A stretch of 64,000 bases of DNA from Candidatus Uhrbacteria bacterium (lineage in GTDB: Bacteria; Patescibacteriota; Patescibacteriia; GWA2-47-26): the NCBI GenBank assembly GCA_016187515.1, contig JACPJN010000007.1, forward strand, positions 228,778 through 292,777. The letters run 5' to 3'. The notes beneath the pieces were generated by a model, which was given only the letters and a program-made list of their open reading frames with translations, did not search any database and was not told the DNA's origin. Below, one piece after another: positions 405-35,600 of the stretch. Position 1 is the stretch's first letter. The number at the start of each line of letters is the position of its first letter. The translations under genes and the position numbers were made by a program.

Positions 405-474
405 TCCCCCCTCTTTCCGCCCGAGGCGGATCCGCCTTGGGAGGAAAGGTAAGAGGGGTAGGGGGAGTTATGAG
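405..474. repeat. GC-rich palindromic element (family P), intergenic copy
   Basis: CCCCCCTCTTTCC...GGAAAGGTAAGAGGGGTAGGGGGAGTTATGAG. Shares the ...GGTAAGAGGGG(G)TAGGGGGAGTTATGAG tail with the copy at 19141..19226. Confidence 0.7.
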
Positions 475-1649
475 ATACCGACAAGATTCTTTTTAATTAG
501 CCATTGCTTATCGCTTAGATCTATTGATCGTAGCACATCTCTAATTTTTTCTGAAGTATAACCATTACCGAACGGATTTTTCAGTTCTGCCACTTTTGCC
601 CGATATTCTTCATCTGTGCATGCTTTGTGGATAGCCTGTGTGATACTTTGCAGATCATCCGGCACAAACTCAACATTTCCGGCATTTAATCGTCCCTGTT
701 GTCTATTTCCTACATTAACAACCGGAAGTTTATAAAATGGCGCCTCCAGAAGACCCATGCTGGAATTTCCAACAAGCGCTCTGGCGTGCCGCATAACATT
801 AACAAATATCTCCCGCTCAAGGTTTTTGTAAAATTTAATAAACGGCTTATCCTTATACGACTGAATCGCCTCTACAATGTCGTGCGCGCCCGGATCGGTA
901 TTGGGATGAATGGCCACTACTTTGTAGCCGGATTCTTTAGAGAATCTCTCCAGCGCTTGAAGATTAATATGCATTTGTCGTCCGGCATCCTGCCATTCTG
1001 AAGAAAGTGGATTTCGAATAAACACAACATAGTGTCCATCGGTAATATCAAATTTCAATATATTGCTTATCTCGCTTAAACTGCGCGCTGGGGTCGTCCG
1101 AATAGTATCTAAAGCCGGATCACCAACATTAAAAATCCGAAATTCTTCTTCACCAACCCGCTGCAAATTTTTTGCGTACGCGTCTGCCAGAGTAAAATGG
1201 ATGTGTGCCAATTTTGAAACCGCAAATCGTATGGGGTCGTCGGCATTCCCATATACCGGATCTCCTCCGCCAAGGTGCGCGACAGCGACATCCATATAAT
1301 TACCAACTAACGCGGCGGCGATACTCTCTTCTCTATCTCCGACCACAAAAATAACATCCGGCTTTTCTCTTTCCACTGTTTGCGCGAGCGCATAAGTCAA
1401 CATTCCAACCCCTTTGACGCGCTGGGTCGTCCGATTAGTCATTAACTGGCTATCGATTTTATCAACAACATGAAACCCGTCCGCTTCAATCTCCCGCAGA
1501 GTAAGTCCATGCCAGTCGGACAAATGCGCTCCGGAAACAACAACCCGAACGTCAAACTGCTCATCTTTCCGCAACGCATTAATGACTGGATATAGAATAT
1601 AATATTCGCTTCTGATGCCGGTTAACGCGAGAATTTTTTTTATTGCCAT
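468..1649 (-). CDS. UDP-N-acetylglucosamine 2-epimerase (NeuC/WecB family)
   Basis: 393 aa. ILALTGIRSEYYILYPV, DVRVVVSGAHLS and HLGGGD motifs of UDP-GlcNAc 2-epimerases. Lies in a cluster with a NeuB-type synthase. Confidence 0.85.
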   Translation of the reverse strand: MAIKKILALTGIRSEYYILYPVINALRKDEQFDVRVVVSGAHLSDWHGLTLREIEADGFHVVDKIDSQLMTNRTTQRVKGVGMLTYALAQTVEREKPDVIFVVGDREESIAAALVGNYMDVAVAHLGGGDPVYGNADDPIRFAVSKLAHIHFTLADAYAKNLQRVGEEEFRIFNVGDPALDTIRTTPARSLSEISNILKFDITDGHYVVFIRNPLSSEWQDAGRQMHINLQALERFSKESGYKVVAIHPNTDPGAHDIVEAIQSYKDKPFIKFYKNLEREIFVNVMRHARALVGNSSMGLLEAPFYKLPVVNVGNRQQGRLNAGNVEFVPDDLQSITQAIHKACTDEEYRAKVAELKNPFGNGYTSEKIRDVLRSIDLSDKQWLIKKNLVGIS

Positions 1650-2434
1650 AAATCATCTAATTCACTTTGATCCAATTCGGACTGGTCGGAAATGCCGCTC
1701 GGTATCTCTTGCGCACTCTCGGCGCCACTTTTTACGAGTTCTTCTCTTTGAATATTTCCTTCCATTAGAACTTCCAAACTCTTGCCGCCGCAATTGAATA
1801 GCAGATCGACAATGCTTAATTTCGAGACGAACTCTCCCCACTGTTGAGGATACTTTGGGTAATGATAGTCCTGAAAATACGGCTGGACGCCTGCGCCCTT
1901 GAAATCTTTTGTCTTGACATACCGCTTTCCAAACGCGCCAAAAATATAGGCATCGGCTCCAAGCTTTTTACACATATCCAGCACCAGCTCTGACCCTTTA
2001 CCCTCAAAATGCATTTCCGAGGCCTTAGAATACCTAACCTTGATATCAAGTTCTTTTAAAAACCAAAGTAGTATGTAGTCCGTCAGCTCTGAAAAATATT
2101 TCCAGTCGCGCTTATATACATCTTCAAAAAAATCAGCATAACTGCTCCAGAACGGAGCATGTTTGTAACTAACCATGAGCGACCTAAAATGTTTTGACCG
2201 CCAATCCGTTGAATTATCTATCTCCATCTGCCAGAGCTGTTTTTCTCTGTAACCGTGAGTTAATAGTGGTACCGTGAGAAAACAAGTCCCCTGCGCGGTT
2301 TTGATCGTATTTCTATTAAACCCGCGCCGCCGATACTGCGCAATATCGAAGGAACAAAACGCGTCGCTCAAAGCAATCTTGTGGAAAAACGCGAGCCAGG
2401 GAAGATAAGTTGGCTGATGCGCGGTAAGTATCAT
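1640..2434 (-). CDS. WbqC-like family protein (glycan-cluster protein of unknown function)
   Basis: 264 aa. N-terminus MILTAHQPTYLPWLAFFHKIA fits the WbqC-like family. Overlaps its neighbour by 10 nt (operon). C-terminal SELDQSELD direct repeat. Confidence 0.6.
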   Translation of the reverse strand: MILTAHQPTYLPWLAFFHKIALSDAFCSFDIAQYRRRGFNRNTIKTAQGTCFLTVPLLTHGYREKQLWQMEIDNSTDWRSKHFRSLMVSYKHAPFWSSYADFFEDVYKRDWKYFSELTDYILLWFLKELDIKVRYSKASEMHFEGKGSELVLDMCKKLGADAYIFGAFGKRYVKTKDFKGAGVQPYFQDYHYPKYPQQWGEFVSKLSIVDLLFNCGGKSLEVLMEGNIQREELVKSGAESAQEIPSGISDQSELDQSELDDLWQ

Positions 2435-14453: not shown

Positions 14454-15917
14454 TCAAGTACCTTCCTCCCATGAACTCAAATACTTTCTTTGCTCCTCGG
14501 TTAATTCATCTTTGCGCACCTCCATTGCCTCAAGCTGCAACGCGGCAATGTCGTCATCTACTCTGGATGGTAACACATAGACCTTTGGCTCGAGTTTCCC
14601 CAGGTTCTCCACAAGATACGCACAAGCCAAAGCTTGCCCGCAAAATGAAAGCGACATCACCTCTGAAGGATGACCTTCTGCCGCGGCCAAATTCACCAGC
14701 CGCCCTTCGCCGGCGACATACAACACGCGGTCATCCGTCATCGGTTCACGGTTCACGGTTTGTGTTGATTTACTGTGAACTGTCGACTGTGAACTGTCGA
14801 CTGGCAAAGTATATTCATCCAGCATCGTCCGCACCGTCCGCACACCCTTTGCCATCTCCCGCAGTCCTTTCAAATCAATCTCCGCGTCAAAATGTCCGGA
14901 ATTGGCCAGAATCGCGCCGGATTTCATTTTAGAAAAATGCTCTGGACGCAAAACATGTTTGTCACCCGTAACCGTAATAAAAATATCGCCAAGCGTGGCG
15001 GCTTCCGCAAGCGGCATCACCCGAAATCCATCCATCACGGCTTGTAGTGCGCGAAACGCGTCAACTTCACACACAATCACATTTGATCCCATGCCGCGCG
15101 CGCGCAAAGCCACGCCTTTGCCGCAGGAACCGTAACCACACACGACCACGGTTTTGCCCGCCCACAAAATATTGGTCGCCCGCGTAATCCCATCCAGCGT
15201 GGATTGCCCGGTGCCATAGTAATTGTCCATCAGATGTTTGGTCTTATTGTCATTCACTGCTACAACCGGGTATTTAAGCGCGCCGTCGCGCTCCATCGCC
15301 CGCAAGCGGATAAGGCCTGTTGTGGTTTCCTCGGTCCCGCCAATTAAATTCGCAATAAACTCCGGGTGTTTTTTGTGAATTTCACCAACTAAATCCCCGC
15401 CATCGTCAATGGTGATCAAATTTCTCCCACCCCTCCTAGCCTCCCCTCGGGTCCCGGCTGCGGCCGAGGATCCTCGATTCTCGAGAATCGGGACAGGGGA
15501 GGAAATTGATTGTTCTCCCCCTCTTAGAGGGGGAGATTCAGAGGGGGTCCGAACCTCTACTTTCATGAACTCAATCACCCGATTTAGAAAATCGTAGTAT
15601 TCCTCATTACTCTCGCCCTTATGTGCAAATACGGCCACGCCTTCCTCCGCGAGCGCCGCCGCCACATCATCTTGAGTGGATAATGGATTACATCCGGTAA
15701 TCGCAACCTCGGCCCCGCCAGAGCGAAGCGTGCGCACCAGCACTGCGGTTTCTTTGGTCACATGCAAGGCCATACCGACAGTCACACCCGCCAATGGTTT
15801 TTCGCGCGCAAACCGCTTTCGCACTTCCAAAAGCGCGCCCATTCTACGTTCGGCTAATTCAATCTGCAGCCGCCCTTGCGGCGCAAGCGAAATGTCTTTT
15901 ACCTTGTATTGTTCCAT
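14454..15917 (-). CDS. ahcY: adenosylhomocysteinase carrying two in-frame repeat-element insertions
   Basis: ORF 14454..15947; probable start MEQYKVKDISLAPQGR. Conserved AhcY blocks (GCNPLSTQDDVAAAL, NAD site VVVCGYGSCGKGVA, HPSEVMSLSF). Inserted peptides SESPPLRGGEQSISSP...GEARRGG and PVDSSQSTVHSKSTQTVNREPM coincide with DNA repeat elements. Confidence 0.9.
   Translation of the reverse strand: MEQYKVKDISLAPQGRLQIELAERRMGALLEVRKRFAREKPLAGVTVGMALHVTKETAVLVRTLRSGGAEVAITGCNPLSTQDDVAAALAEEGVAVFAHKGESNEEYYDFLNRVIEFMKVEVRTPSESPPLRGGEQSISSPVPILENRGSSAAAGTRGEARRGGRNLITIDDGGDLVGEIHKKHPEFIANLIGGTEETTTGLIRLRAMERDGALKYPVVAVNDNKTKHLMDNYYGTGQSTLDGITRATNILWAGKTVVVCGYGSCGKGVALRARGMGSNVIVCEVDAFRALQAVMDGFRVMPLAEAATLGDIFITVTGDKHVLRPEHFSKMKSGAILANSGHFDAEIDLKGLREMAKGVRTVRTMLDEYTLPVDSSQSTVHSKSTQTVNREPMTDDRVLYVAGEGRLVNLAAAEGHPSEVMSLSFCGQALACAYLVENLGKLEPKVYVLPSRVDDDIAALQLEAMEVRKDELTEEQRKYLSSWEEGT
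14742..14802. repeat. CTGTGAACT-type tandem/inverted repeat (family Q) in-frame in ahcY
   Basis: CGGTTCACGGTTCACGG...CTGTGAACTGTCGACTGTGAACTGTCGAC. Encodes PVDSSQSTVHSKSTQTV. Confidence 0.75.
15425..15552. repeat. family P palindromic element inserted in-frame in ahcY
   Basis: ...CGATTCTCGAGAATCG (perfect palindrome) ...CCCCCTCTTAGAGGGGGAGATTCAGAGGGGGTCC. Encodes SESPPLRGGE...RGEARRGG inside AhcY. Confidence 0.75.
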
Positions 15918-17675: not shown

Positions 17676-18512
17676 CTACCAAATCAGTAACCCTATCCCC
17701 AATGCCAAAACGACAAAAGTCCCTAATTTAATGAGGAGATTTTTCTCATGAAAATATAAATTTCCGGAAAGTACGGACCAAAGTATTGCGGAAGCGCGTT
17801 TTACCGCGGTGATAATGGAAGCCGGAGCAAACACAAATGCAAAACTTTCGAGCGCCACCGCCACGCCCATACCCAGCGATTGCGCGATAAAAATCGGCTG
17901 ACGAAAAAAGCGGAACGGATTTTCATGGGCGCGATAATAGGCGTTTACGAAAAAATATGCCATCAGCACGAGCATAATTATCAACTGCTCAGCGACAACC
18001 GAGTTAAAATGAGTAATGTTGTACTTGTAAAGTGAGATGGTCGCCACGGCATTGACCGCGGTAAACAGCACATACCCGCGGCCTTCCCGCTCAATACCGT
18101 GATTAGCAAACAAAAATAGCAGCGTAATTACAATCAATCCAAGACCGGCGATTTGCGATAAAGACAGCGCATAGCCAAGAAAGACATCCACAACCAAAAG
18201 CAGGGGGATGGTCAGTGAGCGGATAAAACTAAAGGTACTGCGTGCGGCCAGCGCCGCGGCTTTAACCGTCAGATGCGCCTGCGCTACTTCAAGAACCAGC
18301 CGTGGAATAAAAGTAGCGAGCGAAGCGGCGACAAATCGAAAACTGCCCGGCACCAATAACGCGACAGCGAAAAAAGCCAGCACGACCCAGAAAAGATCCA
18401 GAAAGCCCCAGGTAAAAATGCTTTCCTGCCGCTCCGTAACTTTTTTCTTGCCAATCAGCTTGGAACATTCATCAAACAAAGTTCCCAAAGAAGCCAGTAA
18501 AATACCGATCAT
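17676..18512 (-). CDS. EamA/DMT-like multi-pass membrane protein
   Basis: 278 aa, about 9 hydrophobic helices, duplicated-half organisation typical of drug/metabolite transporters. Family call is tentative. Confidence 0.45.
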   Translation of the reverse strand: MIGILLASLGTLFDECSKLIGKKKVTERQESIFTWGFLDLFWVVLAFFAVALLVPGSFRFVAASLATFIPRLVLEVAQAHLTVKAAALAARSTFSFIRSLTIPLLLVVDVFLGYALSLSQIAGLGLIVITLLFLFANHGIEREGRGYVLFTAVNAVATISLYKYNITHFNSVVAEQLIIMLVLMAYFFVNAYYRAHENPFRFFRQPIFIAQSLGMGVAVALESFAFVFAPASIITAVKRASAILWSVLSGNLYFHEKNLLIKLGTFVVLALGIGLLIW

Positions 18513-19804
18513 AATTTTGAAATTAACCGCGTAAGATCCGCTGCGTAGGCCGGCGCGCCGGTGGCTCCGGGAGAGTTATAATTGAGGATGTGGAGCGAGC
18601 GCGGAGTTTGCGCTTCTACAACTTCCGGCACAAATCTGCCGTTGCGATCGATAAGCGAGGCGCGCACGCCGGCAGTGCCGCGCGCCACACAATCCGCCAC
18701 GCGAAGATCGGGCAAGAATTTCTGCACCCGCGCGACCATTGCGTCCTTTGATAAGGCGCTGCGCCACTCCTTACCGCACAAACGTAAAAATTCCGGATTG
18801 CGGAGTAATCGCAATTTGTTGGCCAGTGGTTTTTCAGTGAGCTTGCCAAGCACATTACCCACTCCGCGATAGGCATACGACCCAAACACCGGCACCGCGG
18901 ACGGACCAATTTCCACGCGCCCGTCCACGCGCACCACATAGTGCGGGTCAAGAAACGGAAAATCTGTGTGCCGTGGCACAGAGTACACATTACGCAATGC
19001 CAATCGTGCGCTCTCTCCTTCCACAATCAAATACTCCCCGCGAAAATTCAGATCCGCAAACTCTCGCGCCACTCCCATCAGGTGGGCGATCTTCAGCGCG
19101 GCTCCTCCGGCGCAATTCACCATATAGTGCGCTCGTAACCCCTCCTCGCCTCCCCTTACCCTAAGGGGAGGAACCTCGGCAAAATTCCCCCTCTTAAGGT
19201 AAGAGGGGGTAGGGGGAGTTATGAGTCGTTGATATAAAATATCCACTCCGTCCTTCTTCTCTACGATCTTTTTCACCTCACACCCAAACAAAAATTTCAC
19301 TCCTCTTTCTTCGGCATCATCCCGCAACGCTCGTGTGAATGCACCAAAATCTACGGCCGTATCTGTTGTGCAAAGTAAAGCACCTGCACACCAAGCGCTG
19401 GGTTCAATCTCGCGCACTTCTTCCGCACTCAAAAGCCGCACCTCGCTATCTCCCATCCCATTTTGAAGAGACCAAGCTTTATACTTCTTCAGCCGCGCGA
19501 GCTGCGCCTCATCAAGCGCCACCTCCAGCGTTCCCACCTCGCGCCAGGGCAAACCCTTGCGCGCCGCATACTCTTTCCAAAACTCGTACGACTCTTGCGC
19601 GCAGCGCGCAAACTTCCCCTTGCTGATCGGATCAAGATAAAACGGGCGGTGAATCACGCCCGTGTTTCTACTGCTGGTATGCCGCGCGACACCCTCTTCT
19701 TTTTCCACGACCACAATTCTCTCGCCTGGAATATGTTTGGACAACTGATAGGCAAGCGCTGTCCCCAAAATCCCCCCGCCAACAATAACAATATCATACT
19801 CCAT
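18509..19804 (-). CDS. FAD-dependent oxidoreductase (L-2-hydroxyglutarate oxidase/GlpA-like) with in-frame GC palindromic element insertion
   Basis: 431 aa. DIVIVGGGILGTALAYQL dinucleotide-binding motif. Inserted peptide TPPTPSYLKRGNFAEVPPLRVRGGEEG corresponds to the element at 19141..19226. Confidence 0.7.
   Translation of the reverse strand: MEYDIVIVGGGILGTALAYQLSKHIPGERIVVVEKEEGVARHTSSRNTGVIHRPFYLDPISKGKFARCAQESYEFWKEYAARKGLPWREVGTLEVALDEAQLARLKKYKAWSLQNGMGDSEVRLLSAEEVREIEPSAWCAGALLCTTDTAVDFGAFTRALRDDAEERGVKFLFGCEVKKIVEKKDGVDILYQRLITPPTPSYLKRGNFAEVPPLRVRGGEEGLRAHYMVNCAGGAALKIAHLMGVAREFADLNFRGEYLIVEGESARLALRNVYSVPRHTDFPFLDPHYVVRVDGRVEIGPSAVPVFGSYAYRGVGNVLGKLTEKPLANKLRLLRNPEFLRLCGKEWRSALSKDAMVARVQKFLPDLRVADCVARGTAGVRASLIDRNGRFVPEVVEAQTPRSLHILNYNSPGATGAPAYAADLTRLISKL
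19141..19226. repeat. family P palindromic element inserted in-frame in FAD oxidoreductase gene
   Basis: CTCCCCTTACCCTAAGGGGAG ... CCCCCTCTTAAGGTAAGAGGGGGTAGGGGGAGTTATGAG. Confidence 0.75.
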
Positions 19805-20892: not shown

Positions 20893-21849
<957 letters not shown>

Positions 21850-23590: not shown

Positions 23591-24979
23591 TCAAGGCCGG
23601 CCGACTGAAATGTATTGAAAACCCAGTAAACGCATCTTTTTTGCGTCAAGGAGATTGCGGCCGTCAAAAATAAACGGCTGGCGCATTTTTGTTTTCATTT
23701 CTGCCCACGGCAGATCGCGAAACTGCGGCCATTCGGTAAGCACAAGCACTGCATCGGCGCCTTCAGTGACTTCTTCGGGTGTTGGACATGTCACAAGCTC
23801 GGTGATCTCATGCCTTGCATTGGATTCTGCCTGATAATCAAATGCTTTTATTATCGCGCCTTCTTTCATGAGCAATCGTGTAATATCCAGAGCGGTTGAT
23901 TCCCGCACATCATCAGTATTATTTTTAAACGCCAGTCCCAGCACGCCAATCGTCTTGCCTTCCAGGGCACCAAGTATATCCCGCACACGGCGCACAAAGC
24001 GATGCCGCTGTTCCTGATTGACTTCGATCACGGCCTTGAGCAATTTAAAATCATAATCATGATTTAATGCGATATTGTGCAACGCCCGGGTATCTTTCGG
24101 AAAACACGATCCTGAATATCCTGTCCCGGCCTTGAGGAAGTGTGGGCCAATGCGGGGATCCATACCCATTCCGCGGGCTACTTCGTCTACATTCGCGCCG
24201 ACTTCGTCGCAGACATTGGCAATCTCATTGATAAAGGAAATTTTCGTGGCCAAAAACGCATTGCTGGCGTATTTAATCATTTCCGCAGTCGCAATATCCG
24301 TGACCACGCGCTCACCCGGCAATCCCTCATGCACTTTCAAAAGCGCGTCGCGCGCGCGATCCGAGTCCACCCCGATCACCACACGATCCGGATTCATGGT
24401 GTCATGCACGGCCGACCCTTCGCGCAAAAACTCCGGACAAGACGCCACGTCAAACTCAACCTGTGAACTGTGAACTGACGTCTGTGAACTAATCAATTTG
24501 CGCACTTTCTCCGCGGTCCCCACCGGAACCGTGCTTTTATCCGCGATAACTTTGTATCCCCCTCCCCTAACCCCTCCCACAAGGGGAGGGGGATTGCCGT
24601 TTACTTCCCCTCCCTCGATGGGAGGGGATTGAGGGGAGGGTGAGGGTCCCCAATTTTCCGCCACCTCACGCGCCGCGGCAAACACCTGGCTTAAATCCGC
24701 TTCGCCAGAAGGCAACGGCGGCGTGCCCACGCACAAGAAAATCACCTCGGCATTGGGCACGGCCTCGGCATACGACGTCGTGGGAATGAGCCGGCCGCTA
24801 ACCACGCCTTCGCGCACAAGTTCGGGCAGTCCGGGCTCATAAAACGGTACTTCTCCGCGACGGAGCTTCTTCACCTTGTCCGCATCTTTGCGCACGGCAT
24901 AAACCGTGTGCCCCAACTTGGCATACACTGCCGCAGAAGTAAGGCCAACGTAGCCCGCGCCGATAATCGCAATGCGCAT
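23591..24979 (-). CDS. ugd: UDP-glucose 6-dehydrogenase with two in-frame repeat insertions
   Basis: 462 aa. MRIAIIGAGYVGLTSAAVYAKLGH N-terminus and catalytic GGSCFPKD-like motif (GYSGSCFPKDTRAL). Inserts GPSPSPQSPPIEGGEVNGNPPPLVGGVRGGGYK (element 24556..24650) and SSQTSVHSSQ (24461..24490). Confidence 0.85.
   Translation of the reverse strand: MRIAIIGAGYVGLTSAAVYAKLGHTVYAVRKDADKVKKLRRGEVPFYEPGLPELVREGVVSGRLIPTTSYAEAVPNAEVIFLCVGTPPLPSGEADLSQVFAAAREVAENWGPSPSPQSPPIEGGEVNGNPPPLVGGVRGGGYKVIADKSTVPVGTAEKVRKLISSQTSVHSSQVEFDVASCPEFLREGSAVHDTMNPDRVVIGVDSDRARDALLKVHEGLPGERVVTDIATAEMIKYASNAFLATKISFINEIANVCDEVGANVDEVARGMGMDPRIGPHFLKAGTGYSGSCFPKDTRALHNIALNHDYDFKLLKAVIEVNQEQRHRFVRRVRDILGALEGKTIGVLGLAFKNNTDDVRESTALDITRLLMKEGAIIKAFDYQAESNARHEITELVTCPTPEEVTEGADAVLVLTEWPQFRDLPWAEMKTKMRQPFIFDGRNLLDAKKMRLLGFQYISVGRP
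24461..24490. repeat. family Q repeat in-frame in ugd
   Basis: CTGTGAACTGTGAACTGACGTCTGTGAACT. Encodes SSQTSVHSSQ. Confidence 0.75.
24556..24650. repeat. family P palindromic element inserted in-frame in ugd
   Basis: CCCCTCCCACAAGGGGAGGGG ... CCCCTCCCTCGATGGGAGGGGATTGAGGGGAGGGTGAGGGTCC. Confidence 0.75.
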
Positions 24980-27080: not shown

Positions 27081-27170
27081 TTGGTGAGTTATTTAGTTAT
27101 TGGGTTATTAGTTATTAGTTATTAGTTATTTCTGCGCCAATTTTAATAACTTAATCACTTAATAACTTAA
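27081..27170. repeat. palindromic tandem heptamer element (GTTATTA)n / (AATAACTTAATCACTT)n
   Basis: GTTATTGGGTTATTAGTTATTAGTTATTAGTTATTtctgcgccaattttAATAACTTAATCACTTAATAACTTAATCACT, between ymdB stop and hup start. Confidence 0.8.
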
Positions 27171-28001
27171 TCACTCGATCACGATTTGCTCATCAATTCT
27201 TTTTATCGACTTTGCTAATTTAGTGGTTTCATTAATCTCCACCAGCACCGCGCTGATTTGACACAACCCGGTTTCCACTGGCGTGTGCTTGAATGGCTGT
27301 TGCAGTAGGAATGAGCGGATAATCCCATTTTTTTCTTCACCTAAAATTGAATCCACGGCTTGCACTCCGCCCACTTCGGTTACATACGCGGTGCCGCTGG
27401 GCAAAATGCGGGTGTCCGTCGTGCCCATCGAGGTATGCGTGCCCAGCACGGCGGAAACCCGGCCATCAGCGTAATTGCCCAAAGCATTAGCTTCGGAAGT
27501 GGCTTCACAGTGAAAGTCCACCAGAATGCCATTCAATTCTCCCCCTCTTAGGTTAAGAGGGGGCGGGGGGGAGTTATGATACCTCGCCAAAATCTCATCC
27601 AGCTTCCGAAATGGATCATCATACTGCGACTGAAAAAACACCCGGCCCATTAAGTTTACCACCAGCAGCCGAATTTTTCCATCTTTGCTTTCCACTACCA
27701 TATCGCCGCGTCCCGGCAAACCCGGCGGAAAATTGGCTGGCCGCACCAGCGGTAAATCTCCGCGAGCCATCAGCTTGGCCCCTTCGGCCTTAAACGAATG
27801 GTTGCCGCCCGTTACGCAATCCACTCCGGCATCCAAAAGTTCGCGCACGGTTTTTTCAGTCATGCCTACGCCATGCGCCAGATTTTCTCCATTGCCAATT
27901 ACAAAATCCGGCTTGTATTTCTTGCGCCAGCGCGGCAAGACCTCGGCCACGGCCCGCCGCCCGATTTTTCCGAAGATGTCGCCGATGAATATGATGCGCA
28001 T
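27171..28001 (-). CDS. ymdB: YmdB-family metallophosphoesterase (2',3'-cyclic-nucleotide phosphodiesterase) with in-frame palindromic insert
   Basis: 276 aa. MRIIFIGDIFGKIGRRAV...DFVIGNGENLAHGVG metallophosphatase motifs. Adjacent to rny. Inserted SPPPPLNLRGGE coincides with the element at 27541..27578. Confidence 0.8.
   Translation of the reverse strand: MRIIFIGDIFGKIGRRAVAEVLPRWRKKYKPDFVIGNGENLAHGVGMTEKTVRELLDAGVDCVTGGNHSFKAEGAKLMARGDLPLVRPANFPPGLPGRGDMVVESKDGKIRLLVVNLMGRVFFQSQYDDPFRKLDEILARYHNSPPPPLNLRGGELNGILVDFHCEATSEANALGNYADGRVSAVLGTHTSMGTTDTRILPSGTAYVTEVGGVQAVDSILGEEKNGIIRSFLLQQPFKHTPVETGLCQISAVLVEINETTKLAKSIKRIDEQIVIE
27541..27578. repeat. family P palindromic element (short copy) inserted in-frame in ymdB
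   Basis: CCCCCTCTTAGGTTAAGAGGGGGCGGGGGGGAGTTATGAT. Confidence 0.7.
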
Positions 28002-28244: not shown

Positions 28245-29768
28245 TTAGCGCGCATACTCCACCACCCGCGTCTCCCGAATCACGTTAACCTTCACCTCGC
28301 CGGGATATTGCATCTCGGCTTCGATCCGTTTCGCCACATTTTTGGCTAACTCATAGGCCGACAGGTCGTCAATCTCCTGGGGCTTGACAAAGACCCGCAG
28401 CTCGCGGCCGGCCTGAATCGCGTAGGCATGTTCAACGCCGGGAAAGGCAGTGGCAATTTTTTCCAAATCCTCCAGGCGTTTGACATAGTCCTCGGCGGAT
28501 TCGCGCCGCGCGCCCGGCCTGGAACCGGAGATCGCGTCAGCCACTTTTACGATAATCCCTTCCAGCGTCTTCGGATTGTCTTCATGGTGGGCAATGGCCA
28601 TGTACGCGATATTTTCCGGAAAATTGAATTTCTTCATCAGCTCATAGCCCAAGTGCGTGTGCGCGCCTTTCATGTCCTGATCAATCGCTTTGCCGATATC
28701 ATGGAACAGTCCGCCTTTTTTACAAATGCTCACATCCGCGCCCAGCTCCTCGGCTAAAAGCGTGGCGAGATAGCCCACTTCGGTGGAATGCACTAGGACA
28801 TTTTGACCATAACTCGTGCGATATTTAAGGCGGCCCAGGATGGAGACCATCTTCGGATCAATTCCGGTAATCCCCATTTCATAAAGTACGTCGTCGCCGG
28901 CTTTACGAATGTCCAGCGCGAGTTCCTGGCGGGCTTCTTCCACTTTCTCTTCAATGCGCGCCGGATGAATCCGTCCATCCGCGATGAGTTTATCCAAAGC
29001 GCGCTTGGCCACTTGCCGGCGGATCGGCGAAAATCCGGAAACCGTCAAGGCATTCGGGGTCTCATCAATAATCACGTCAATTCCGGTCAACCGCTCCAGG
29101 GTCTTGATATTCCGGCCTTCTTTTCCAATAATGCGCCCTTTCATTTCATCGGAGGGCAGCGGCACGACGGTAGTGTTAATATCGGAGGCGTGGGAGGCCG
29201 CGATACGCTGGACCGCGGTGGCGACCATGGTCCGGGCTTGGCGATCCAGCTCTTCTTGAGTAGTCCCCTGCAGTTTGCGAATCCGGGTTATCAATTCTTC
29301 TTGGCTATCCTCTTCCACTTTCTTTAAAAGCTCGGCAACGGCTTGCTCGCGGGTCAGTCCGGCCACGGTTTGCAGCCGCTCGATCGCTTGCTGGCGCACT
29401 TGTTCGATCTGCGCTTTAACCCCCTCCACCTGCTTTAATTTTTCTTGCAGTTTTTCTTGCTTATCTTCAAGCTCCAGGAGTTTTTTATCAAACGTTCCCT
29501 CGCGGTCAACCAACCGCTGCTTCTCCACCCGCAACTCTTTGCGTACGGTCTCTTCTTCGGCCTTGGCTTTATCAATAATGACAATACTCTTCTCCCGGGC
29601 TTGAAGAAGAATCTCCTGCTCTTTGGACTTGGCCTCCGCGACGATTTTTTCGGCTTTGGCTTCGGCGCTATGCGCGAGCGTCGCGGCGCGGCTCTTGCGC
29701 AGATACCAGCCGATGGCGGCGCCGATGGCCAGCGCCCCGAGTGTCGAAAGAATGGTAATCAATGACAT
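28245..29768 (-). CDS. rny: ribonuclease Y
   Basis: ORF 28245..29804. Probable start MSLITILSTLGALAIG (N-terminal TM anchor) at 29768. Long coiled-coil, KH domain (GRIIGKEGRNIKTLE), HD domain (HSTEVGYLA...HDIGKA). Confidence 0.9.
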   Translation of the reverse strand: MSLITILSTLGALAIGAAIGWYLRKSRAATLAHSAEAKAEKIVAEAKSKEQEILLQAREKSIVIIDKAKAEEETVRKELRVEKQRLVDREGTFDKKLLELEDKQEKLQEKLKQVEGVKAQIEQVRQQAIERLQTVAGLTREQAVAELLKKVEEDSQEELITRIRKLQGTTQEELDRQARTMVATAVQRIAASHASDINTTVVPLPSDEMKGRIIGKEGRNIKTLERLTGIDVIIDETPNALTVSGFSPIRRQVAKRALDKLIADGRIHPARIEEKVEEARQELALDIRKAGDDVLYEMGITGIDPKMVSILGRLKYRTSYGQNVLVHSTEVGYLATLLAEELGADVSICKKGGLFHDIGKAIDQDMKGAHTHLGYELMKKFNFPENIAYMAIAHHEDNPKTLEGIIVKVADAISGSRPGARRESAEDYVKRLEDLEKIATAFPGVEHAYAIQAGRELRVFVKPQEIDDLSAYELAKNVAKRIEAEMQYPGEVKVNVIRETRVVEYAR

Positions 29769-29810: not shown

Positions 29811-29858
29811 CTCTCCCCCTTAGGATAAGGGGGAGCAAGAGGGGGTTACGAACCCTCA
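29811..29858. repeat. family P palindromic element in rny 5' region
   Basis: TCCCCCTTAGGATAAGGGGGAGCAAGAGGGGGTTACGAACCC, about 40 nt upstream of the rny start codon. Confidence 0.65.
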
Positions 29859-31937: not shown

Positions 31938-31940
31938 ATC

Positions 31941-32582: not shown

Positions 32583-32614
32583 TTTTTTGTCAACCCTGAC
32601 CCATCAGAGCCTGT

Positions 32615-35600
32615 TTACGCGCTATTTTTGCTCTTGCGCGTGATAAGAAACCAAGCCGCGCGGGTTCCGGAGACAAAGAGTTTCCGCCGGCGCAGCGCGG
32701 CCGCGGCCGCCACCGCGCCTCCTCCGGCCGCCGTGGCGGTAGTATAGGGAGAGGGTTCGGCGGTTGATGCTCCGTCTTTTTCTGTCTCCGCGCCAGTTGC
32801 GCCCAACAATTCATCTTTACTCAAAATCTCAATATCTTCGGTAAACCTGGGCATGAGTTGATACCCGTTTTTGGTCTGTCCTAAAATACCCGTAACCGCG
32901 ACTCTAAATCCCGGGACAAGCTCGGTCATCTTAATATCGGTCGTATTCTTTACCGCCACATAAACTTCCCCGGCCGCATCCTCCAAAGTAAATCCGGAGT
33001 TTTTTATATCAATAATCGTGCCTTCCATCTTAATTAACGCGGCCTCGGTTTCCTCACCAACTTCATCGCTTAAAACCTGGCGCGGAATTGGCGCTTTTCC
33101 TTTCTTAATAAATCCAACGTCTTCCTTATCTTTAACGCGAATCCGATACTCGCCGCCGGCCTGACCCAGTACGCCTTGAACGGTAACCACATCGCCAATC
33201 TCAAGCGCCGGAAACGCTTTTTTGCTGGAATAAACCTGCAAACCTGATTCCCGGCTTTGCCGAGGATCCTCGGTAGTAAAGCTACCGGGACCGAATAAAT
33301 AAAAAATCTGCGCGCCGAGCATTCCGGGCGGCGCGGAAACCACTCCTTGCACGCGGACTTTTGTACCCAGCTCAAGATCACGCACTTCGGAAAGCGGTAC
33401 TTCCTGCGCGGCGTAAGACCCCTCCTCCGCTCCGCGCGGGAGAGGAGGGGGTGAGGACGATTCAATCACATTTTTCGCGCCCGGTGTTAACTTCCCGGTC
33501 CATCCCCACTGACCGTTTTGCGTCCGCGCGTAACTGTGTCCCTCACGCGCTTCTTCATACTCCACACTATCGATCAGCCGACCGACCGGATCAAACAAGC
33601 GCACCGCGTCCGTTGTATTGTTGAGCGTAAGCCGCGTTTTTGATTTGGGGAAAAGCGCGTAGCTGTGCGGCGCGGCTTTAACCGCCTCAATCGTATGGGC
33701 CGGACTCCCGCCTTCGATGTCATCCAGTTTAAATCCGGCCAGATCCAATTCTTCAGCGCCATCCCAAAACAGTTCAAGCCATTCTCCCTCATCAGATCCC
33801 TCCGGATCAGGAATAAATTCCGAGATGAAAAGTTTATCTCGCACATCAGAAATCCCCTCACCCCCACCCTCTCCCGCAGGGGGCGAGGGAGTACGATTGG
33901 CTTCCTCCCCCTTGATGGGGGAGGATTGAGGAGGGGGTGGTAATTTTGTGTTATCTGTGTCGATTTTCTGTGATTCTTCAATCACGTTTCCCTGCCCTTT
34001 CGTCACCTTCGCCGTTACCGCAAAATCCTTCTGATCATTAGCGGTGTCTTGCCCGTCTACCCGTCGGGCAACCGAATGGGGGTCTTGAGCGGCTGGCGCG
34101 TTATCCGAAGGTATGCCATCCTCCCACACGCCATAGGCCACGCGATCCACTACTGCGTTTTTATCATTTTTTAGCCGAATGATGTCGCCCTTGTTGTTGA
34201 GATTGCCTTTGATTGTCTCCACCACCAAAAACATTCCGGGAACAATGGTGCCTTGCAATTTGGTCTTACTTTCCGCGCCTTCTTCTAAAAACCAACCTTG
34301 AAGATCAACCGCGACCTCGCCGGAGTTAAAAAGTTCAACCCACTCCTCGCCGTCTTCCGGATCAGACACGAATTCGTTGATCACTATTTCCGCGGAAGGA
34401 ATGTTCGATGGCGCGGATACAACATCTGTGCCTCCGCGAGTAACGGTTTCAGTAATAACTTTGATTGCGGTAATGGTATTGGCCGAACCCTTGGTTGGGG
34501 TAGATGAAACCGCAAAATCGACGTTATCTATTCCAGTATCCGCGCCATTGCTTTTGCGCGCCACCGCGTGTCCGGGAGTATCGGGCGCCGGGGCATTGTC
34601 GGAAATGTTTCCATCGTTCCAATCGCCATAAGCGGCTTTATCGAGAAGCAACCCCGCGGCCGACTTCAGTTCAATAACGTCGCCGCTATTGTTGAGCCGC
34701 GCGGACGAAACTTCAAAAACCAAAAAGCCGCGCGCCGAAATTGTGCCCGTAAGCGATTTTATGGAATTGCCGGTGCCGTCATAAATTCTCCACCCGGCCA
34801 AATCAATCGGGAGATTAGTATTGTTGTAAAGTTCAATCCACTCCACGCTGTCGGTCGGATTGGGAACAAACTCATTGATAACCACCTCTCCCGCGCCAAC
34901 CACCCCTTCCTCCCCTCCTGCCAAAGGAGGGGGAAGCGGATCGTTTTCCTCCCCTGCCGGAGGAGGGTCGCCTTCCTCGCTTTCTCCCCCTTCTGAAGGG
35001 GGAGATTCAGAGGGGGTCCCAAGCTCCGGCCGTACCGCACTTACGCTATTTCGCGGATCCGCGCTTGCCCGTAACACAAAATCCGCGACATTGTTATTGG
35101 TATCCGCGCCGTTACCTTCCGCGCCGCCCGGAAGACGCTCAATACTTTCGCCCGCGCCCGGATTTGCCGCGAAAACTGTCCCTTCCACAAAAGCGTTTGC
35201 CGCCGTACCCCAGCCGACCGCGTCAATGATCTCGCCGGTATTTTCCGGGCCGCGGCGAAGGGCGATCCCGTTGTCCGGAGCAATCGTGCCTACGGTGGTT
35301 TCATCCGGCGTAACCGCGATAGCCGTAAACCCGCTATTGGCCCAAAGATAATAGCCGTGGGATGGCACTAGCGCCGCTTCGGTCCAGGATTTCAGAGTAG
35401 TGTCGCTGGTGCCCGTGGCGGTTCGCTTCACCAGCCGTATCCCATTCAAATCTACGGCCGCGGCCGTGGGATTGTAAAGCTCCACAAAATCATTCGTAGT
35501 TTTTCCCGCCCCGCCGGTGATCTGCACTTGGGAAATTAGCAGTCCGGTACCATGCGCGGCCGAGGCAAGGTTCCCCAAATAAAAAAATCCCCCCACTACT

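What the first reader, a model, noticed from the sequence alone, without database searches (positions are those of the whole stretch)
405..35017. A GC-rich palindromic element family inserted in-frame into at least eight protein-coding genes
A repeat built from CCCC(C)TC-loop-GAGGGG(G) hairpins plus a G-rich tail recurs at least nine times (405-474, 15425-15552, 19141-19226, 24556-24650, 27541-27578, 29811-29858, 33420-33460, 33853-33945, 34902-35017). The tail is ...GAGGGGGTAGGGGGAGTTATGAG, ...AGATTCAGAGGGGGTCC or ...GATTGAGG(A)GGGG. Most copies lie inside open reading frames. They preserve the frame and are translated as Pro/Gly/Glu-rich loops (SPPLRGGE, PPLRVRGGEEG, NPPPLVGGVRGGG, SPPPPLNLRGGE, PPPLAGGEEG). 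Affected genes include ahcY, ugd, ymdB, an FAD oxidoreductase and a four-LTD surface protein. All copies share one orientation. This strongly parallels Rickettsia palindromic elements (RPEs), selfish hairpin repeats that colonise coding sequence without inactivating it. As far as I know this has not been described as a named element family in this kind of genome. Several essential housekeeping genes each carry a copy.
Basis: seen in the sequence. Interest (0 to 1): 0.88.

Follow-up and report, generated by a model that had tools for sequence, protein, structure and literature searches.

The report
Triplex-motif palindromic repeats inside CPR genes
A Candidatus Uhrbacteria genome carries G/C-rich hairpin repeats of the same three-armed kind as the E. 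coli BoxC repeats, but here they sit in frame inside housekeeping genes and add disordered Pro/Gly-rich loops, and across bacteria they regularly flank a small nuclease gene (DUF559) that may move them.

Summary
All nine copies are real and far beyond chance. Seven lie in frame inside five genes (AhcY, a FAD oxidoreductase, Ugd, YmdB and an LTD protein with three copies). One supplies the stop codon of an epimerase gene and one lies upstream of RNase Y. The title's "at least eight genes" is therefore overstated.

The "G-rich tail" is a mirror copy of the hairpin's purine arm. Each module reads Y-arm, loop, R-arm, 2-3 nt, mirror R'-arm. This is the class II intrastrand-triplex motif already described as BoxC, PIT or TMECO in E. 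coli (PMC4666352). One window copy matches the published TMECO pattern exactly.

The family is not lineage-specific. The type-1 hairpin occurs in at least 119 loci across many phyla, with conserved TAAC...GTTA ends.

Two results appear to be new:
- In CPR genomes 58% of elements are read through by long ORFs, against 7% elsewhere. Hosts include LeuRS, PolA, RuvB and transketolase.
- DUF559 (Vsr-like nuclease) genes are flanked by these modules in 68 of 80 unbiased metagenomic loci, and at E. coli ycjD.

The RPE-like reading holds functionally. The family itself is a known kind in a new setting.

The parts
405..474 (+). Solo class II module: Y arm CCCCCCTCTT, R arm AAGAGGGG, mirror arm GGGGGAG, then the GTTATGAG terminus. 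A roughly 30-nt palindrome is nested in the loop. Read on the minus strand it supplies ...ATC TCA TAA, the last two codons and the stop of ORF 468-1649(-) (Epimerase_2).
15425..15552 (+). Composite element in AhcY. The left module is CCCCTCC-TAG-CCTCCCC...GGGGAGG, with a 49-nt nested palindromic insert in its loop. The right module, 15514-15547, is TCTCCCCCT-loop-AGGGGGAGA-TTC-AGAGGGGG. It is translated as residues ~122-165 of the 487-aa NCBI AhcY model.
19136..19225 (+). Canonical two-hairpin composite with TAAC...GTTA ends: TAAC-CCCCTCC-TCG-[CCTCCCCTT/AAGGGGAGG]-15 nt-[CCCCCTCTT/AAGAGGGGG]-TA-GGGGGAG-TTATGAG. It forms a 26-aa in-frame insert in the DAO-family oxidoreductase that is absent from two syntenic relatives.
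24556..24650 (+). Composite element in Ugd. The left module is CCCTCCCC-TAA-CCCCTCCC/GGGAGGGG. The right module is TCCCCTCCC/GGGAGGGGA-TTG-AGGGGAGGG, a 9/9 mirror. The insert covers roughly aa 110/111-143 (110-142 by the coordinate mapping; residues 111-143 have no counterpart in PDB 4a7p). It is orthologous to a shorter insert in L122, and the site is empty in L121.
27541..27578 (+). Solo class II module in YmdB: CCCCCTCTT/AAGAGGGGG-CGG-GGGGGAG-TTATG. It makes an 11-aa insert relative to B. subtilis YmdB (4b2o) and is read in the PPLNLRGG frame.
29811..29858 (+). Solo class II module: CTCCCCCTT/AAGGGGGAG-CAA-GAGGGGG-TTACGA. It is intergenic, lying 7 nt upstream of the longest rny ORF and about 43 nt upstream of the probable ATG at 29768.
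33420..33460 (+). Degenerate single hairpin (CCCCTCCTCCGC...GCGGGAGAGGAGGGG) with a partial G-rich tail. It lies in frame in the LTD protein (aa 777-790), after the fourth LTD repeat.
33853..33945 (+). Composite element in the LTD protein (aa 615-646). Its left module, 33855-33889 on the minus strand, matches the published TMECO pattern exactly: CCCTCGCCC-CCTGC-GGGAGAGGG-TGG-GGGTGAGGG. Its right module is TCCTCCCCC/GGGGGAGGA-TTG-AGGAGGGGG, a 9/9 mirror.
34902..35017 (+). Composite with three hairpins in the LTD protein (aa 258-296, the linker before the second LTD repeat). The right module, 34983-35016, is TCTCCCCCT/AGGGGGAGA-TTC-AGAGGGGG and is 87% identical to the AhcY copy.
   Evidence: (D19)
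14454..15917 (-). Host gene: adenosylhomocysteinase, 487 aa against 416-425 aa in typical homologues. It is 100% identical to an NCBI Candidatus Uhrbacteria protein.
18509..19804 (-). Host gene: FAD-dependent oxidoreductase (Pfam DAO).
23591..24979 (-). Host gene: UDP-glucose 6-dehydrogenase.
27171..28001 (-). Host gene: YmdB-like phosphoesterase.
32615..35788 (-). Host gene: protein with four lamin-tail-domain (LTD) repeats, carrying three elements in inter-repeat linkers. The 5' end of the longest ORF overlaps a tRNA at 35761-35844(+), so the true start is further downstream.

Best explanation
Identity. The repeats belong to the widespread BoxC / PIT / 'TM' class of G/C-rich palindromic repeats.
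- The basic module is a class II purine-motif intrastrand-triplex design. It has a polypyrimidine arm, a 3-5 nt loop, the complementary polypurine arm, a 2-3 nt spacer, and a second purine arm that mirrors the first.
- Two modules in tail-out inverted orientation, separated by a 10-60 nt spacer, form a composite of roughly 90 nt. In the commonest subfamily this composite ends in TAAC...GTTA.

Behaviour. They act as non-autonomous selfish DNA.
- Copies are scattered, nest inside one another, and differ between close relatives.
- The same sequence family occurs across phyla and on viral contigs.

What is special here. In this Candidatus Uhrbacteria genome, and in CPR/Patescibacteria generally, the elements are not purged from coding sequence.
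- Copies that keep the frame and avoid the one stop-containing frame persist.
- These copies are presumably translated into disordered Pro/Leu/Arg/Gly/Glu-rich loops at tolerant surface or linker positions. This is what RPEs do in Rickettsia.

Shown:
- the existence and enrichment of the copies;
- three-way covariation of the arms;
- in-frame, lineage-specific insertion;
- the contrast between CPR and other phyla;
- the physical linkage with DUF559 genes.

Inferred:
- that the inserts are translated;
- that a triplex or hairpin forms in vivo;
- that the elements move, and how.

My favoured mechanism, at about 0.35-0.4, is that the Vsr-like PD-(D/E)XK nuclease DUF559 acts on the folded ends. 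Its gene is bracketed by two modules with their third arms facing the gene.
For: Architecture:
- Every C-rich hairpin in the window has a 7-9 nt mirror copy of its adjacent arm. Other hairpins score 5 or less.
- The window has 10 class II motifs against about 0.01 expected.
- One copy matches the TMECO pattern exactly. By my alignment it is about 30 of 35 nt identical to the E. coli K-12 copy next to ycjD.

Covariation across phyla:
- Arm pairs co-vary, for example CCTCCCC/CCCCTCC, CCCCCTC/CTCCCCC, CCTCCTC/CTCCTCC, CCTCCCT/TCCCTCC and CCTTCCC/CCCTTCC.
- In 93 hairpin pairs with different stems, the outer arm mirrors the adjacent hairpin perfectly in 33 (left) and 38 (right) cases. It mirrors the distal hairpin in 2 and 2 (p about 4e-9 and 7e-9).
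- Only 2 of 21 composites have a perfectly Watson-Crick outer stem.

Known class:
- PMC4666352 describes the same Y-R-R' motif. It reports inverted pairs, triplex formation in vitro by CD and NMR, and 3610 copies in 262 genomes.

Distribution:
- At least 119 loci in GTDB species representatives across many phyla carry the same flanking arms.
- So do 62 viral contigs.

In-frame insertion:
- Alignments with orthologues show it.
- Alignments with PDB homologues 4a7p, 4b2o and 7zd8 show it.
- Syntenic Uhrbacteria loci show it.
- The AlphaFold AhcY insert has pLDDT below 50 and is coil.

CPR contrast:
- 15 of 26 CPR elements are spanned by long ORFs, against 7 of 103 in other phyla (Fisher p = 4e-8).
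- Random positions score 60% and 66%.
- CPR hosts include LeuRS, RuvB, PolA, transketolase and Fmt.

DUF559 linkage:
- All 7 DUF559 genes in the pattern-derived loci have a module within 71 nt.
- 68 of 80 metagenomic DUF559 loci, selected on protein motifs only, have one within 150 nt, against 0.23 per kb background.
- The orientation is consistent: 24 to 6 upstream and 30 to 6 downstream.
- E. coli K-12 ycjD has a TMECO about 170 nt downstream and a TM remnant at its stop codon.
Against: - No transposase, integrase or DUF559 gene was found among the window ORFs scanned. Activity in this genome is therefore unproven.
- No target-site duplication could be defined.
- Window copies are diverged, at about 87% between the closest pair, so there is no sign of a recent burst.
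- Holder et al. saw no triplex in vivo and found no link to mobile elements in E. coli.
- Gene-less composites are tail-out (39 against 5). A simple internal deletion of a [module-DUF559-module] unit would give a tail-in product.
- Translation of the inserts rests only on open frames and on the NCBI annotation.
- The 80 DUF559 loci are the best matches to queries that were themselves TM-associated, so they sample one subfamily.
Confidence: 0.8

Rival explanations
1. The elements are attC-like recombination sites, or empty integron-type cassettes. They would fold as single strands and be moved by a tyrosine recombinase. Genes such as DUF559 would be cassettes lying between them.
For: - The type-1 ends are ...TAAC and GTTA..., which recall the AAC/GTT of attC R''/R' boxes.
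- The minimal unit is 49-50 nt and consists of an outer stem, an internal loop and an inner stem.
- Some genomes carry arrays with short ORFs or 45-nt 'empty' spacers between copies: L026, L042, and L108 with toxin-antitoxin-like genes.
- DUF559 ORFs fit exactly between GTTATG and TAAC.
Against: - No integrase was found in the window ORFs scanned.
- Copies are dispersed singly inside housekeeping genes rather than in arrays.
- Gammaproteobacterial variants end in AAATC...GATTT, and window types 2 and 3 lack AAC/GTT.
- The conserved constraint is mirror symmetry with the adjacent hairpin, not pairing of the two ends. The attC model does not predict this.
- I did not scan the array loci for intI.
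Confidence: 0.07
2. The segments are selected protein features. They would be Pro/Gly-rich flexible linkers that arose or converged at the protein level, with the DNA similarity as a by-product.
For: The inserts sit in loops and linkers, are compositionally similar, and appear to be tolerated in essential enzymes.
Against: - The same DNA unit is read in two frames, giving unrelated peptides: ITPPTPSYLKRG and NSPPPPLNLRGG.
- It also occurs outside ORFs (copies 405 and 29811) and intergenically in about 93% of non-CPR cases.
- Perfect palindromy and mirror symmetry have no meaning at the protein level.
- The insert is absent from close orthologues.
- The AlphaFold model shows it as unstructured.
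Confidence: 0.03
3. The elements act at the RNA level. They could be a structured regulatory motif, or an intervening sequence excised from the mRNA, in which case the inserts would never reach the protein.
For: - Every copy forms a strong hairpin.
- Many copies elsewhere sit just upstream of an ATG, with a GGGGGAG stretch that looks like a ribosome-binding site.
- CPR bacteria are known, from my own knowledge, to carry insertions in their rRNA genes.
Against: - No Rfam family matches.
- The ATG of GTTATGA rarely starts a real ORF: about 8 of 47 sites.
- In CPR the share of elements read through by ORFs (58%) equals the coding fraction at random positions (60%). Essentially all intragenic copies are therefore stop-free and in frame, which excision would not require.
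- Purine-motif triplexes do not form in RNA (PMC4666352).
- PIT elements showed no promoter or terminator activity.
Confidence: 0.05
4. The repeats are not mobile. They would arise and be reshaped locally by replication slippage, hairpin-templated repair or gene conversion at unstable G/C-rich sites. The DUF559 linkage would reflect a repair or regulatory role, or a shared preference for such sites.
For: - TM loci are hotspots of small deletions and rearrangements in E. coli.
- The same AhcY and Ugd sites carry different or nested modules in different lineages.
- No target-site duplication and no transposase were found.
- L042 shows tandem duplications of target plus element.
Against: - Near-identical units of 50-90 nt, with the same termini and spacer logic, occur in unrelated genes, phyla and viral contigs.
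- Independent local origin is hard to reconcile with this. A clean presence/absence difference at the DAO site points to insertion of a pre-formed unit.
Confidence: 0.08

Closest known systems
E. coli BoxC repeats = PIT elements (Hoyne/Maher 2000) = TMECO intrastrand triplex motifs (Holder et al. 2015, PMC4666352)
   Same: - The module is the same three-block Y-loop-R-spacer-mirror R' design (class II purine motif), G/C-rich, with 7-9 nt arms and similar loop and spacer sizes.
- Pairs of modules occur in inverted configuration.
- The T-for-A variant GGGTGAGGG is shared.
- One window copy fits the published pattern exactly and is about 30 of 35 nt identical to an E. coli K-12 copy.
- The family is multi-copy and differs between close relatives.
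   Different: - In E. coli the motif is reported as always intergenic. Here 7 of 9 copies, and 58% of copies in CPR loci, are read through by ORFs.
- Most window copies use other arm sequences (CCCCCTCTT, TCTCCCCCT, TCCCCTCCC) and, in type 1, the TAAC/GTTA termini.
- The published distribution was 262 proteobacterial genomes for TMECO. Here the family reaches CPR, Nitrospirota, Desulfuromonadales, Chloroflexi, Omnitrophota and viral contigs.
- The published work does not report a DUF559 linkage.
Rickettsia palindromic elements (RPEs; Ogata et al. 2000, summarised in PMC10969869)
   Same: - Both are short palindromic selfish repeats inserted in frame into unrelated housekeeping genes.
- Both are translated as extra peptide segments at positions compatible with the fold.
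- Both occur in reduced-genome, host-dependent bacteria.
   Different: - No sequence relationship has been shown.
- RPEs are about 100-150 bp, fall into ten families, each encode a conserved peptide, and are restricted to Rickettsia.
- The present modules are 35-50 nt, are read in two frames, have mirror (triplex-type) symmetry, and occur across many phyla.
Bacterial MITEs with intragenic copies (ERIC, BOX and others; PMC10969869, PMC3184786)
   Same: - They are small, non-coding and carry terminal inverted repeats.
- They nest inside one another.
- They occasionally form in-frame fusions with host ORFs.
   Different: - No target-site duplication and no parent IS element with a known transposase were found.
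- The candidate partner (DUF559) is a Vsr-like nuclease and not a member of a known transposase family.
Integron attC sites
   Same: Both have an imperfect palindrome with AAC...GTT-type ends (in type 1), fold as a single strand, and occur in some genomes in arrays separated by short ORFs.
   Different: The present elements lie inside genes, no integrase was seen, some subfamilies lack AAC/GTT, and their conserved constraint is mirror symmetry.
REP/REPIN elements with RAYT transposases (PMC3116915, PMC3733652)
   Same: Both are short G/C-rich hairpin repeats, often in inverted pairs, possibly mobilised in trans by a single-copy domesticated nuclease gene that is itself flanked by the repeats.
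   Different: No GTAG or CGTC tag and no RAYT (IS200/IS605-like) gene was seen. REPs are extragenic. The flanked gene here is DUF559.

Membership tests
BoxC / PIT / TM intrastrand-triplex repeats | Three consecutive blocks on one strand: a pyrimidine arm, its Watson-Crick purine complement, and a third purine arm that mirrors the second (G*GC, A*AT or T*AT triads) | tested here: met
   - the mirror match is 7-9 nt for every C-rich hairpin and 5 or less for all others.
- 7 motifs on the plus strand and 3 on the minus strand, against about 0.01 expected.
- the arms co-vary across phyla.
BoxC / PIT / TM intrastrand-triplex repeats | Published TMECO pattern CCCTCNCCC-N3-6-GGGNGAGGG-N3-GGGNGAGGG | tested here: met
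   One search gives one exact match at 33855-33889(-), with 0 expected. The other eight copies are sequence variants of the same design and do not match this exact pattern.
BoxC / PIT / TM intrastrand-triplex repeats | Frequent pairing of two motifs in inverted configuration on opposite strands | tested here: met
   Five of the nine window copies are composites. Across loci the tail-out arrangement outnumbers tail-in by 39 to 5.
BoxC / PIT / TM intrastrand-triplex repeats | Intergenic location, as reported for E. coli MG1655 | tested here: not met
   Seven of nine window copies lie inside ORFs. In CPR loci the figure is 15 of 26, against 7 of 103 elsewhere. This is a property of the E. coli copies and not part of the structural definition.
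BoxC / PIT / TM intrastrand-triplex repeats | The single strand actually folds into a triplex (CD/NMR) | not testable with these tools
   Only Watson-Crick folding could be computed. In solo modules the R' arm stays unpaired in that fold.
Rickettsia palindromic elements (RPE) | Palindromic repeat inserted in frame in unrelated ORFs and compatible with the protein fold | tested here: met
Rickettsia palindromic elements (RPE) | Sequence membership in RPE families 1-10, each with a conserved encoded peptide | not tested
   No RPE sequences were available for comparison. Size, composition and the use of two reading frames argue against homology. I therefore file this as 'works like an RPE', not as a member.
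MITE | Terminal inverted repeats and small non-coding size | tested here: met
   In type 1, TCATAAC[T/G]CCCCC...GGGGG[A/C]GTTATGA ends are conserved across phyla. Units span 49-161 nt.
MITE | Target-site duplication | tested here: inconclusive
   The flanks of 17 complete units show no direct repeat beyond a possible TA hidden in TAAC/GTTA. Orthologues at about 75% identity are too diverged to fix the boundaries.
MITE | A parent element encoding a transposase with the same ends | tested here: not met
   No transposase was found in the window ORFs scanned. The only recurrent neighbour is DUF559, a nuclease of unknown role.
Integron attC | Conserved AAC...GTT core sites at the ends of an imperfect palindrome | tested here: inconclusive
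   They are present in type 1. They are absent in window types 2 and 3 and in the gammaproteobacterial AAATC...GATTT variants.
Integron attC | Arrays next to an intI integrase gene | tested here: not met
   The window has no integrase and no array. Array-bearing loci in other genomes were not scanned for intI.

The most novel reading that the evidence does not exclude
BoxC/TM triplex-motif repeats and DUF559 genes together form a previously unrecognised class of mobile element that is found across bacteria and also carried on phage contigs.
- The Vsr-like DUF559 nuclease would recognise and nick the folded (hairpin or triplex, mismatch-containing) ends that bracket its own gene, and would mobilise gene-less copies in trans.
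- In CPR/Patescibacteria these copies insert into coding sequence about as often as expected at random. They would be a continuing source of new disordered loops in essential proteins.
Probability: 0.35. Interest if true: 0.85.

Novelty: new variant of a known kind. Interest (0 to 1): 0.68.

Why it matters
- Origin and spread of BoxC/PIT repeats. These repeats have been known since the 1990s without an origin, a mobility mechanism or a partner protein. The tight, oriented DUF559 linkage (68 of 80 loci, plus E. coli ycjD) gives a directly testable candidate, and gives a large domain of unknown function a candidate substrate.
- Extension of the RPE phenomenon. In-frame colonisation of housekeeping genes by selfish palindromes has been regarded as a Rickettsia peculiarity. 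Here it appears across a whole radiation of reduced-genome bacteria, which may explain some of the unusual insertions and length variation in CPR proteins.
- Evidence for selection on a triple-strand-compatible DNA structure. The three-way covariation across phyla is comparative evidence of this kind for a structure whose occurrence in vivo is still debated.
- Practical consequence. These inserts can mislead annotation, orthology calls and structure prediction for CPR genomes assembled from metagenomes.

Tried and rejected
- Rfam scan of the whole window found only a tRNA. No described RNA family matches.
- Literature searches for CPR in-frame palindromes, for the literal arm sequences, and for DUF559 found no prior description of this setting. 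Only the search on intrastrand triplexes found the known class.
- I tested whether ...GGGGGAGTTATG is a ribosome-binding site plus start codon. Only about 8 of 47 such ATGs open an ORF longer than 80 aa, so GTTATGA is an element terminus. I rejected the idea.
- I tested for a fixed orientation relative to the host gene. Solo modules in other genomes are roughly 7 sense to 7 antisense, so I rejected it as a general rule.
- I considered that the outer arms are simply a terminal Watson-Crick stem. This is disfavoured, because each arm mirrors its adjacent hairpin perfectly, while the two arms pair perfectly in only 2 of 21 composites.
- The search for a target-site duplication was inconclusive.
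- I looked for extra or degenerate copies in 36-64 kb and found none.
- I looked for a transposase, integrase or DUF559 gene in the window and found none in the ORFs scanned, about 38 of roughly 60.
- I considered that DUF559 sits inside the spacer of a composite. This is rejected, because the third arms face the gene (tail-in), whereas composites are tail-out.
- tblastn found no DUF559 genes on the 62 viral loci.
- I considered G-quadruplex or i-motif readings from the sequence and did not pursue them. There are only three G-tracts or C-tracts per strand, and neither structure explains the mirror covariation.

Full report
**Source and setting.** The window comes from a Candidatus Uhrbacteria (CPR/Patescibacteria) assembly. 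Its AhcY protein is 100% identical to an NCBI Uhrbacteria protein on a 318-kb contig. Overall G+C is 51%. Positions 1-26 kb hold a nucleotide-sugar and glycan biosynthesis cluster on the minus strand: Epimerase_2, WbqC, two DegT, NeuB, PglD-like, several epimerases and two Ugd-family genes. They also hold AhcY, a DAO-family oxidoreductase, PfkB, an AbiEii toxin and FtsH. Downstream come YmdB, RNase Y and a protein with four LTD repeats.

**Check of the observation.**
- A scan for perfect hairpins found 11 with a C-rich pyrimidine 5' arm and a G-rich 3' arm (8-10 bp stems, 3-5 nt loops). All lie inside the nine copies, and none has the opposite polarity.
- GAGGGGG occurs 19 times against 8 expected; 0 of 100 shuffles reach that count.
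- All copies fold better than their shuffles as single-stranded DNA, with z from -1.75 to -4.1.
- A looser scan found no further copies, and none lies in 36-64 kb.
- Seven copies are in frame within five genes: AhcY, the DAO oxidoreductase, Ugd, YmdB and the LTD protein (three copies).
- Copy 405-474 contributes only the last two codons and the TAA stop of the epimerase ORF.
- Copy 29811-29858 lies upstream of the probable RNase Y start.
- The title's 'at least eight genes' is therefore too high.

**What the 'G-rich tail' is.**
- In every module the tail is the mirror image of the hairpin's purine arm, after a 2-3 nt spacer. Examples are GGGAGGGGA-TTG-AGGGGAGGG, GGGGGAGGA-TTG-AGGAGGGGG, AGGGGGAGA-TTC-AGAGGGGG and GAGGGGG-TA-GGGGGAG.
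- Left-hand modules of the longer copies are the reverse complement of this design: mirror pyrimidine arm, spacer, hairpin.
- Mirror matches are 7-9 nt for every C-rich hairpin and 5 or less for all 41 other hairpins in the window.
- A formal search for Y-loop-R-spacer-mirror R' finds 7 motifs on the plus strand and 3 on the minus strand, against about 0.01 expected.
- This is the sequence requirement for an intramolecular purine-motif (class II) triple helix.

**This architecture is already known.**
- Holder et al. 2015 (PMC4666352) describe the E. coli BoxC repeat. It was re-found as the 'potential intrastrand triplex' (PIT) element by Hoyne and Maher, and Holder et al. renamed it TMECO.
- Its pattern is 5'-CCCTCNCCC-N3-6-GGGNGAGGG-N3-GGGNGAGGG.
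- They report 3610 copies in 262 proteobacterial genomes.
- The single strand forms a stable triplex in vitro, by CD and NMR. No triplex was detected in vivo.
- Two motifs often pair in inverted configuration.
- In E. coli the motif is always intergenic, shows no link to mobile elements, and is associated with local genomic instability.
- Window 33855-33889(-) matches the published pattern exactly, with 0 expected. It closely resembles an E. coli K-12 copy.
- The window's five composite copies have the same inverted-pair layout.

**The family is not lineage-specific.**
- Hits come from Desulfuromonadales/Geobacter, Nitrospirota, Dehalococcoidia, Omnitrophota, Methylococcaceae, Pasteurellaceae, Planctomycetes and many CPR lineages.
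- Although only the hairpin was specified, nearly every hit carries the outer arms, in the form (CA)TAAC[T/G]CCCCC-N2-4-[hairpin]-N2-4-GGGGG[A/C]GTTA(TGA).
- Often a second hairpin (CCTCCCCTT/AAGGGGAGG) is present, exactly as in window 19136-19225.
- 62 IMG/VR viral contigs also carry it, and 59 of 72 hits there have at least one proper arm.

**Three-way covariation.**
- Across variants and phyla the outer arm always mirrors the adjacent hairpin arm. Pairs include CCTCCCC/CCCCTCC, CCCCCTC/CTCCCCC, CCTCCTC/CTCCTCC, CCTCCCT/TCCCTCC, CCTTCCC/CCCTTCC and CCCCTCT/TCTCCCC.
- The GGGAGAGGG variant takes GGGTGAGGG as its third arm. This places T opposite an A-T pair, an allowed T*AT triad.
- In 93 neighbouring hairpin pairs with different stems, the outer flank mirrors the adjacent hairpin perfectly 33 (left) and 38 (right) times. 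It mirrors the distal hairpin 2 and 2 times (Wilcoxon p about 4e-9 and 7e-9).
- Of 21 composites with both mirrors perfect, only 2 have perfectly complementary outer arms.
- The conserved constraint is therefore mirror symmetry and not a terminal stem. Mirror symmetry has no meaning for a dimeric protein on duplex DNA, which points to a triple-strand-compatible fold (inference).

**The inserts are lineage-specific and in frame.**
- AhcY is 487 aa, against 416-425 aa for typical homologues.
- Relatives at 63-76% identity carry different inserts, or none, at three hot spots.
- Against PDB 7zd8, residues 112-165 and 375-398 have no counterpart.
- The Ugd insert is roughly aa 110/111-143; residues 111-143 have no counterpart in PDB 4a7p.
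- YmdB carries 11 extra residues relative to 4b2o.
- Two syntenic Uhrbacteria loci were recovered, L121 and L122.
- The 26-aa DAO insert is absent from both.
- The Ugd insert is absent from L121. In L122 a shorter insert shares the same DNA boundaries.
- L122 AhcY carries a full type-1 composite at the hot spot where the window has a type-2 composite.
- In the AlphaFold2 model of AhcY the fold is confident. Residues 125-163 (the element) and 378-393 (a second repeat-derived insert) are coil with pLDDT below 50.
- The same DNA unit is read as ...PSYLKRG... in DAO and in L122 AhcY, and as ...PPLNLRGG... in YmdB and many CPR hosts. The third frame contains TAA.
- The epimerase ORF ends on the TCA TAA of the terminus.

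**CPR against other phyla.**
- I scored each element as 'intragenic' if a stop-free frame spans it within an ORF of at least 150 aa, with at least 40 aa on each side.
- By this test 15 of 26 elements in CPR loci (58%, excluding the window) are intragenic, against 7 of 103 (7%) in other phyla. In the window the figure is 6 of 7 (Fisher p = 4e-8).
- Random positions score 60% in CPR loci and 66% in other loci.
- Outside CPR the elements are therefore strongly excluded from genes. In CPR they are not excluded at all, yet they remain open.
- CPR hosts include LeuRS, RuvB, DNA polymerase I (two copies), transketolase, Fmt (two copies), a PrmC-like methyltransferase (two copies), PolX and a NadB-like oxidase.
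- Occasional non-CPR cases include YbeY, RibD and YggS.
RPEs are summarised in PMC10969869.

**A candidate partner: DUF559.**
- In several pattern-derived loci a small ORF sits exactly between two elements. Its ATG lies in GTTATG and its stop lies in or near TAAC. The ORF is DUF559 (PF04480).
- DUF559 belongs to the Vsr-like branch of the PD-(D/E)XK nucleases. That branch also contains a homing endonuclease (PMC3424549; PMC12907096).
- All seven DUF559 genes in those loci have a C-rich hairpin within 71 nt, and four are flanked on both sides.
- As an independent check, the single annotated DUF559 gene within the 30-kb E. coli K-12 region examined, ycjD, has three features. A TMECO lies about 170 nt downstream, a TM remnant overlaps its stop codon, and a duplicated fragment of its 3' end lies between the two. 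From memory, ycjD is the only DUF559 gene in K-12, but I did not check this genome-wide.
- As an unbiased test, 80 metagenomic DUF559 loci were retrieved on protein motifs only. 68 have such a hairpin within 150 nt. It lies upstream in 49 of 75 loci, downstream in 54 of 70, and on both sides in 37.
- The background more than 300 nt from the gene is 0.23 per kb.
- The module nearest the gene has its third arm facing the gene, 24 to 6 upstream and 30 to 6 downstream.
- Gene-less composites have the opposite, tail-out arrangement, 39 to 5. The relationship is therefore not a simple internal deletion.
- The layout resembles gene-plus-site cassettes, or the joined ends of an excised circle.
- No DUF559 gene lies in the window. 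I found no published link between DUF559 and BoxC.

**How it most likely works.**

Shown:
- It is a structured repeat family with strong sequence and symmetry conservation, spread across phyla and onto viral contigs.
- It is present or absent between relatives, nests inside itself, and is physically coupled to DUF559.

Inferred:
- It is selfish DNA that spreads as a pre-formed unit.
- Folding of one strand during replication, repair or transfer is part of its recognition.
- DUF559 is the best candidate for the enzyme that nicks or processes it. The imperfect outer stems contain T:G and C:A mismatches, which is the kind of substrate a Vsr-like enzyme recognises.
- In CPR, insertions into coding DNA survive when they are in frame and stop-free, at loop or linker positions. 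They are then translated into disordered segments.
- Why CPR tolerate them is unknown. The parallel with Rickettsia, which also has a reduced genome and a host-dependent lifestyle, suggests weak purifying selection (inference).

**Rivals.**
- An attC or integron reading is suggested by the AAC/GTT-like ends and by arrays in some genomes. It is weakened by the lack of an integrase here, the dispersed intragenic copies, subfamilies without those ends, and the mirror constraint.
- Protein-level selection is contradicted by the use of two reading frames and by the intergenic copies.
- RNA-level function or excision is unsupported by Rfam, and the universally open frames argue against it.
- Purely local generation by instability cannot easily explain near-identical units in unrelated genes and phyla.

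**Verdict.** The RPE-like interpretation is right in function. The element is a member of a known structural class (BoxC/PIT/TM) in a new and striking genomic role, and it now has a candidate partner protein.

Noticed in passing
window 14766-14811 (AhcY), 21454-21485 (PfkB), 24461-24492 (Ugd): A second repeat family also lies in frame inside genes. It consists of tandem heptamers CTGTGAA/CTGTCGA (D8), translated for example as SSQSTVHSKSTQTV. In AhcY it forms the second insert (aa 375-398), which has no counterpart in PDB 7zd8 and has low pLDDT. Relatives carry other repeat-derived peptides at the same site.
   Followed up: partly
window 28170-28257; 27141-27180; 21855-21936, 41887-41959 and 59942-60058; 14347-14446, 26676-26806 and 50165-50287; 20825-20879 and 47618-47672: Intergenic tandem arrays of 8-9-nt units recur at several sites. 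They include ACTTACTC x10, GTAAATCAA-type 9-mers arranged around a palindromic centre, TAATTGACC-type 9-mers inside a 123-nt repeat, and TTGGAATTT-type units. Similar TTGGAAT heptamers alternate with the C/G hairpin elements in a Dehalococcoidia locus (L022), and they precede the element in L122 AhcY.
   Followed up: no
window 56055-59651 (+); L121:1-2515: Translation initiation factor IF-2 carries an intein with a LAGLIDADG domain. In the related Uhrbacteria locus L121 the Ugd orthologue carries an intein instead of the palindromic insert.
   Followed up: no
window 54309-54349 and 60668-60708: Two 95%-identical copies of a perfect 16-bp-stem hairpin, TGTCCCAAAATCTCAC-GGCC-GTGAGATTTTGGGACA, lie at gene ends. 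This is a different, A/T-richer palindromic repeat and may be terminator-like.
   Followed up: no
window 36000-40000: This stretch has 60% G+C, against 51% overall. It contains long overlapping ORFs on both strands (37295-39031 + and 37256-38467 -) with no Pfam match, and an exact 41-nt tandem duplication at 36015-36096.
   Followed up: no
window 35761-35844 (+): A tRNA gene (Rfam, 57 bits) overlaps the 5' end of the longest LTD-protein ORF on the opposite strand. That ORF's true start must therefore lie further downstream.
   Followed up: no
window 405-474 and 15440-15500: The loops of two elements contain other small G/C-rich palindromes, for example CCGCCCGAGGCGG...CCGCC and GGATCCTCGATTCTCGAGAATCG. 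This suggests nested insertion of a further repeat type into the hairpin loops.
   Followed up: no
L042:2600-4250 (Desulfuromonadaceae): Four tandem units of about 220 nt each consist of a duplicated 3' fragment of a type I restriction hsdS gene plus a composite element. They are followed by a flanked DUF559 gene and then hsdR, whose ATG lies in the element's GTTATG. This is an example of element-associated local duplication.
   Followed up: partly
L108:1300-4750 (Arsukibacterium ikkense): Four composite elements of the AAATC...GATTT variant are spaced 740-1700 nt apart, with small ORFs between them that look like toxin-antitoxin genes (PIN-like, RHH-like) judged by eye. The layout resembles a cassette array. 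I did not check for an integrase.
   Followed up: no
window 24981-26660 and 41979-43895: There are two FtsH paralogues (AAA + Peptidase_M41). They account for the direct DNA repeats D10 and D12.
   Followed up: no
L203-L264 (IMG/VR contigs): 62 viral or prophage contigs carry the type-1 hairpin, mostly with the proper outer arms and in some cases with several copies per contig. tblastn found no DUF559 on them. This is a possible route for spread between phyla.
   Followed up: partly
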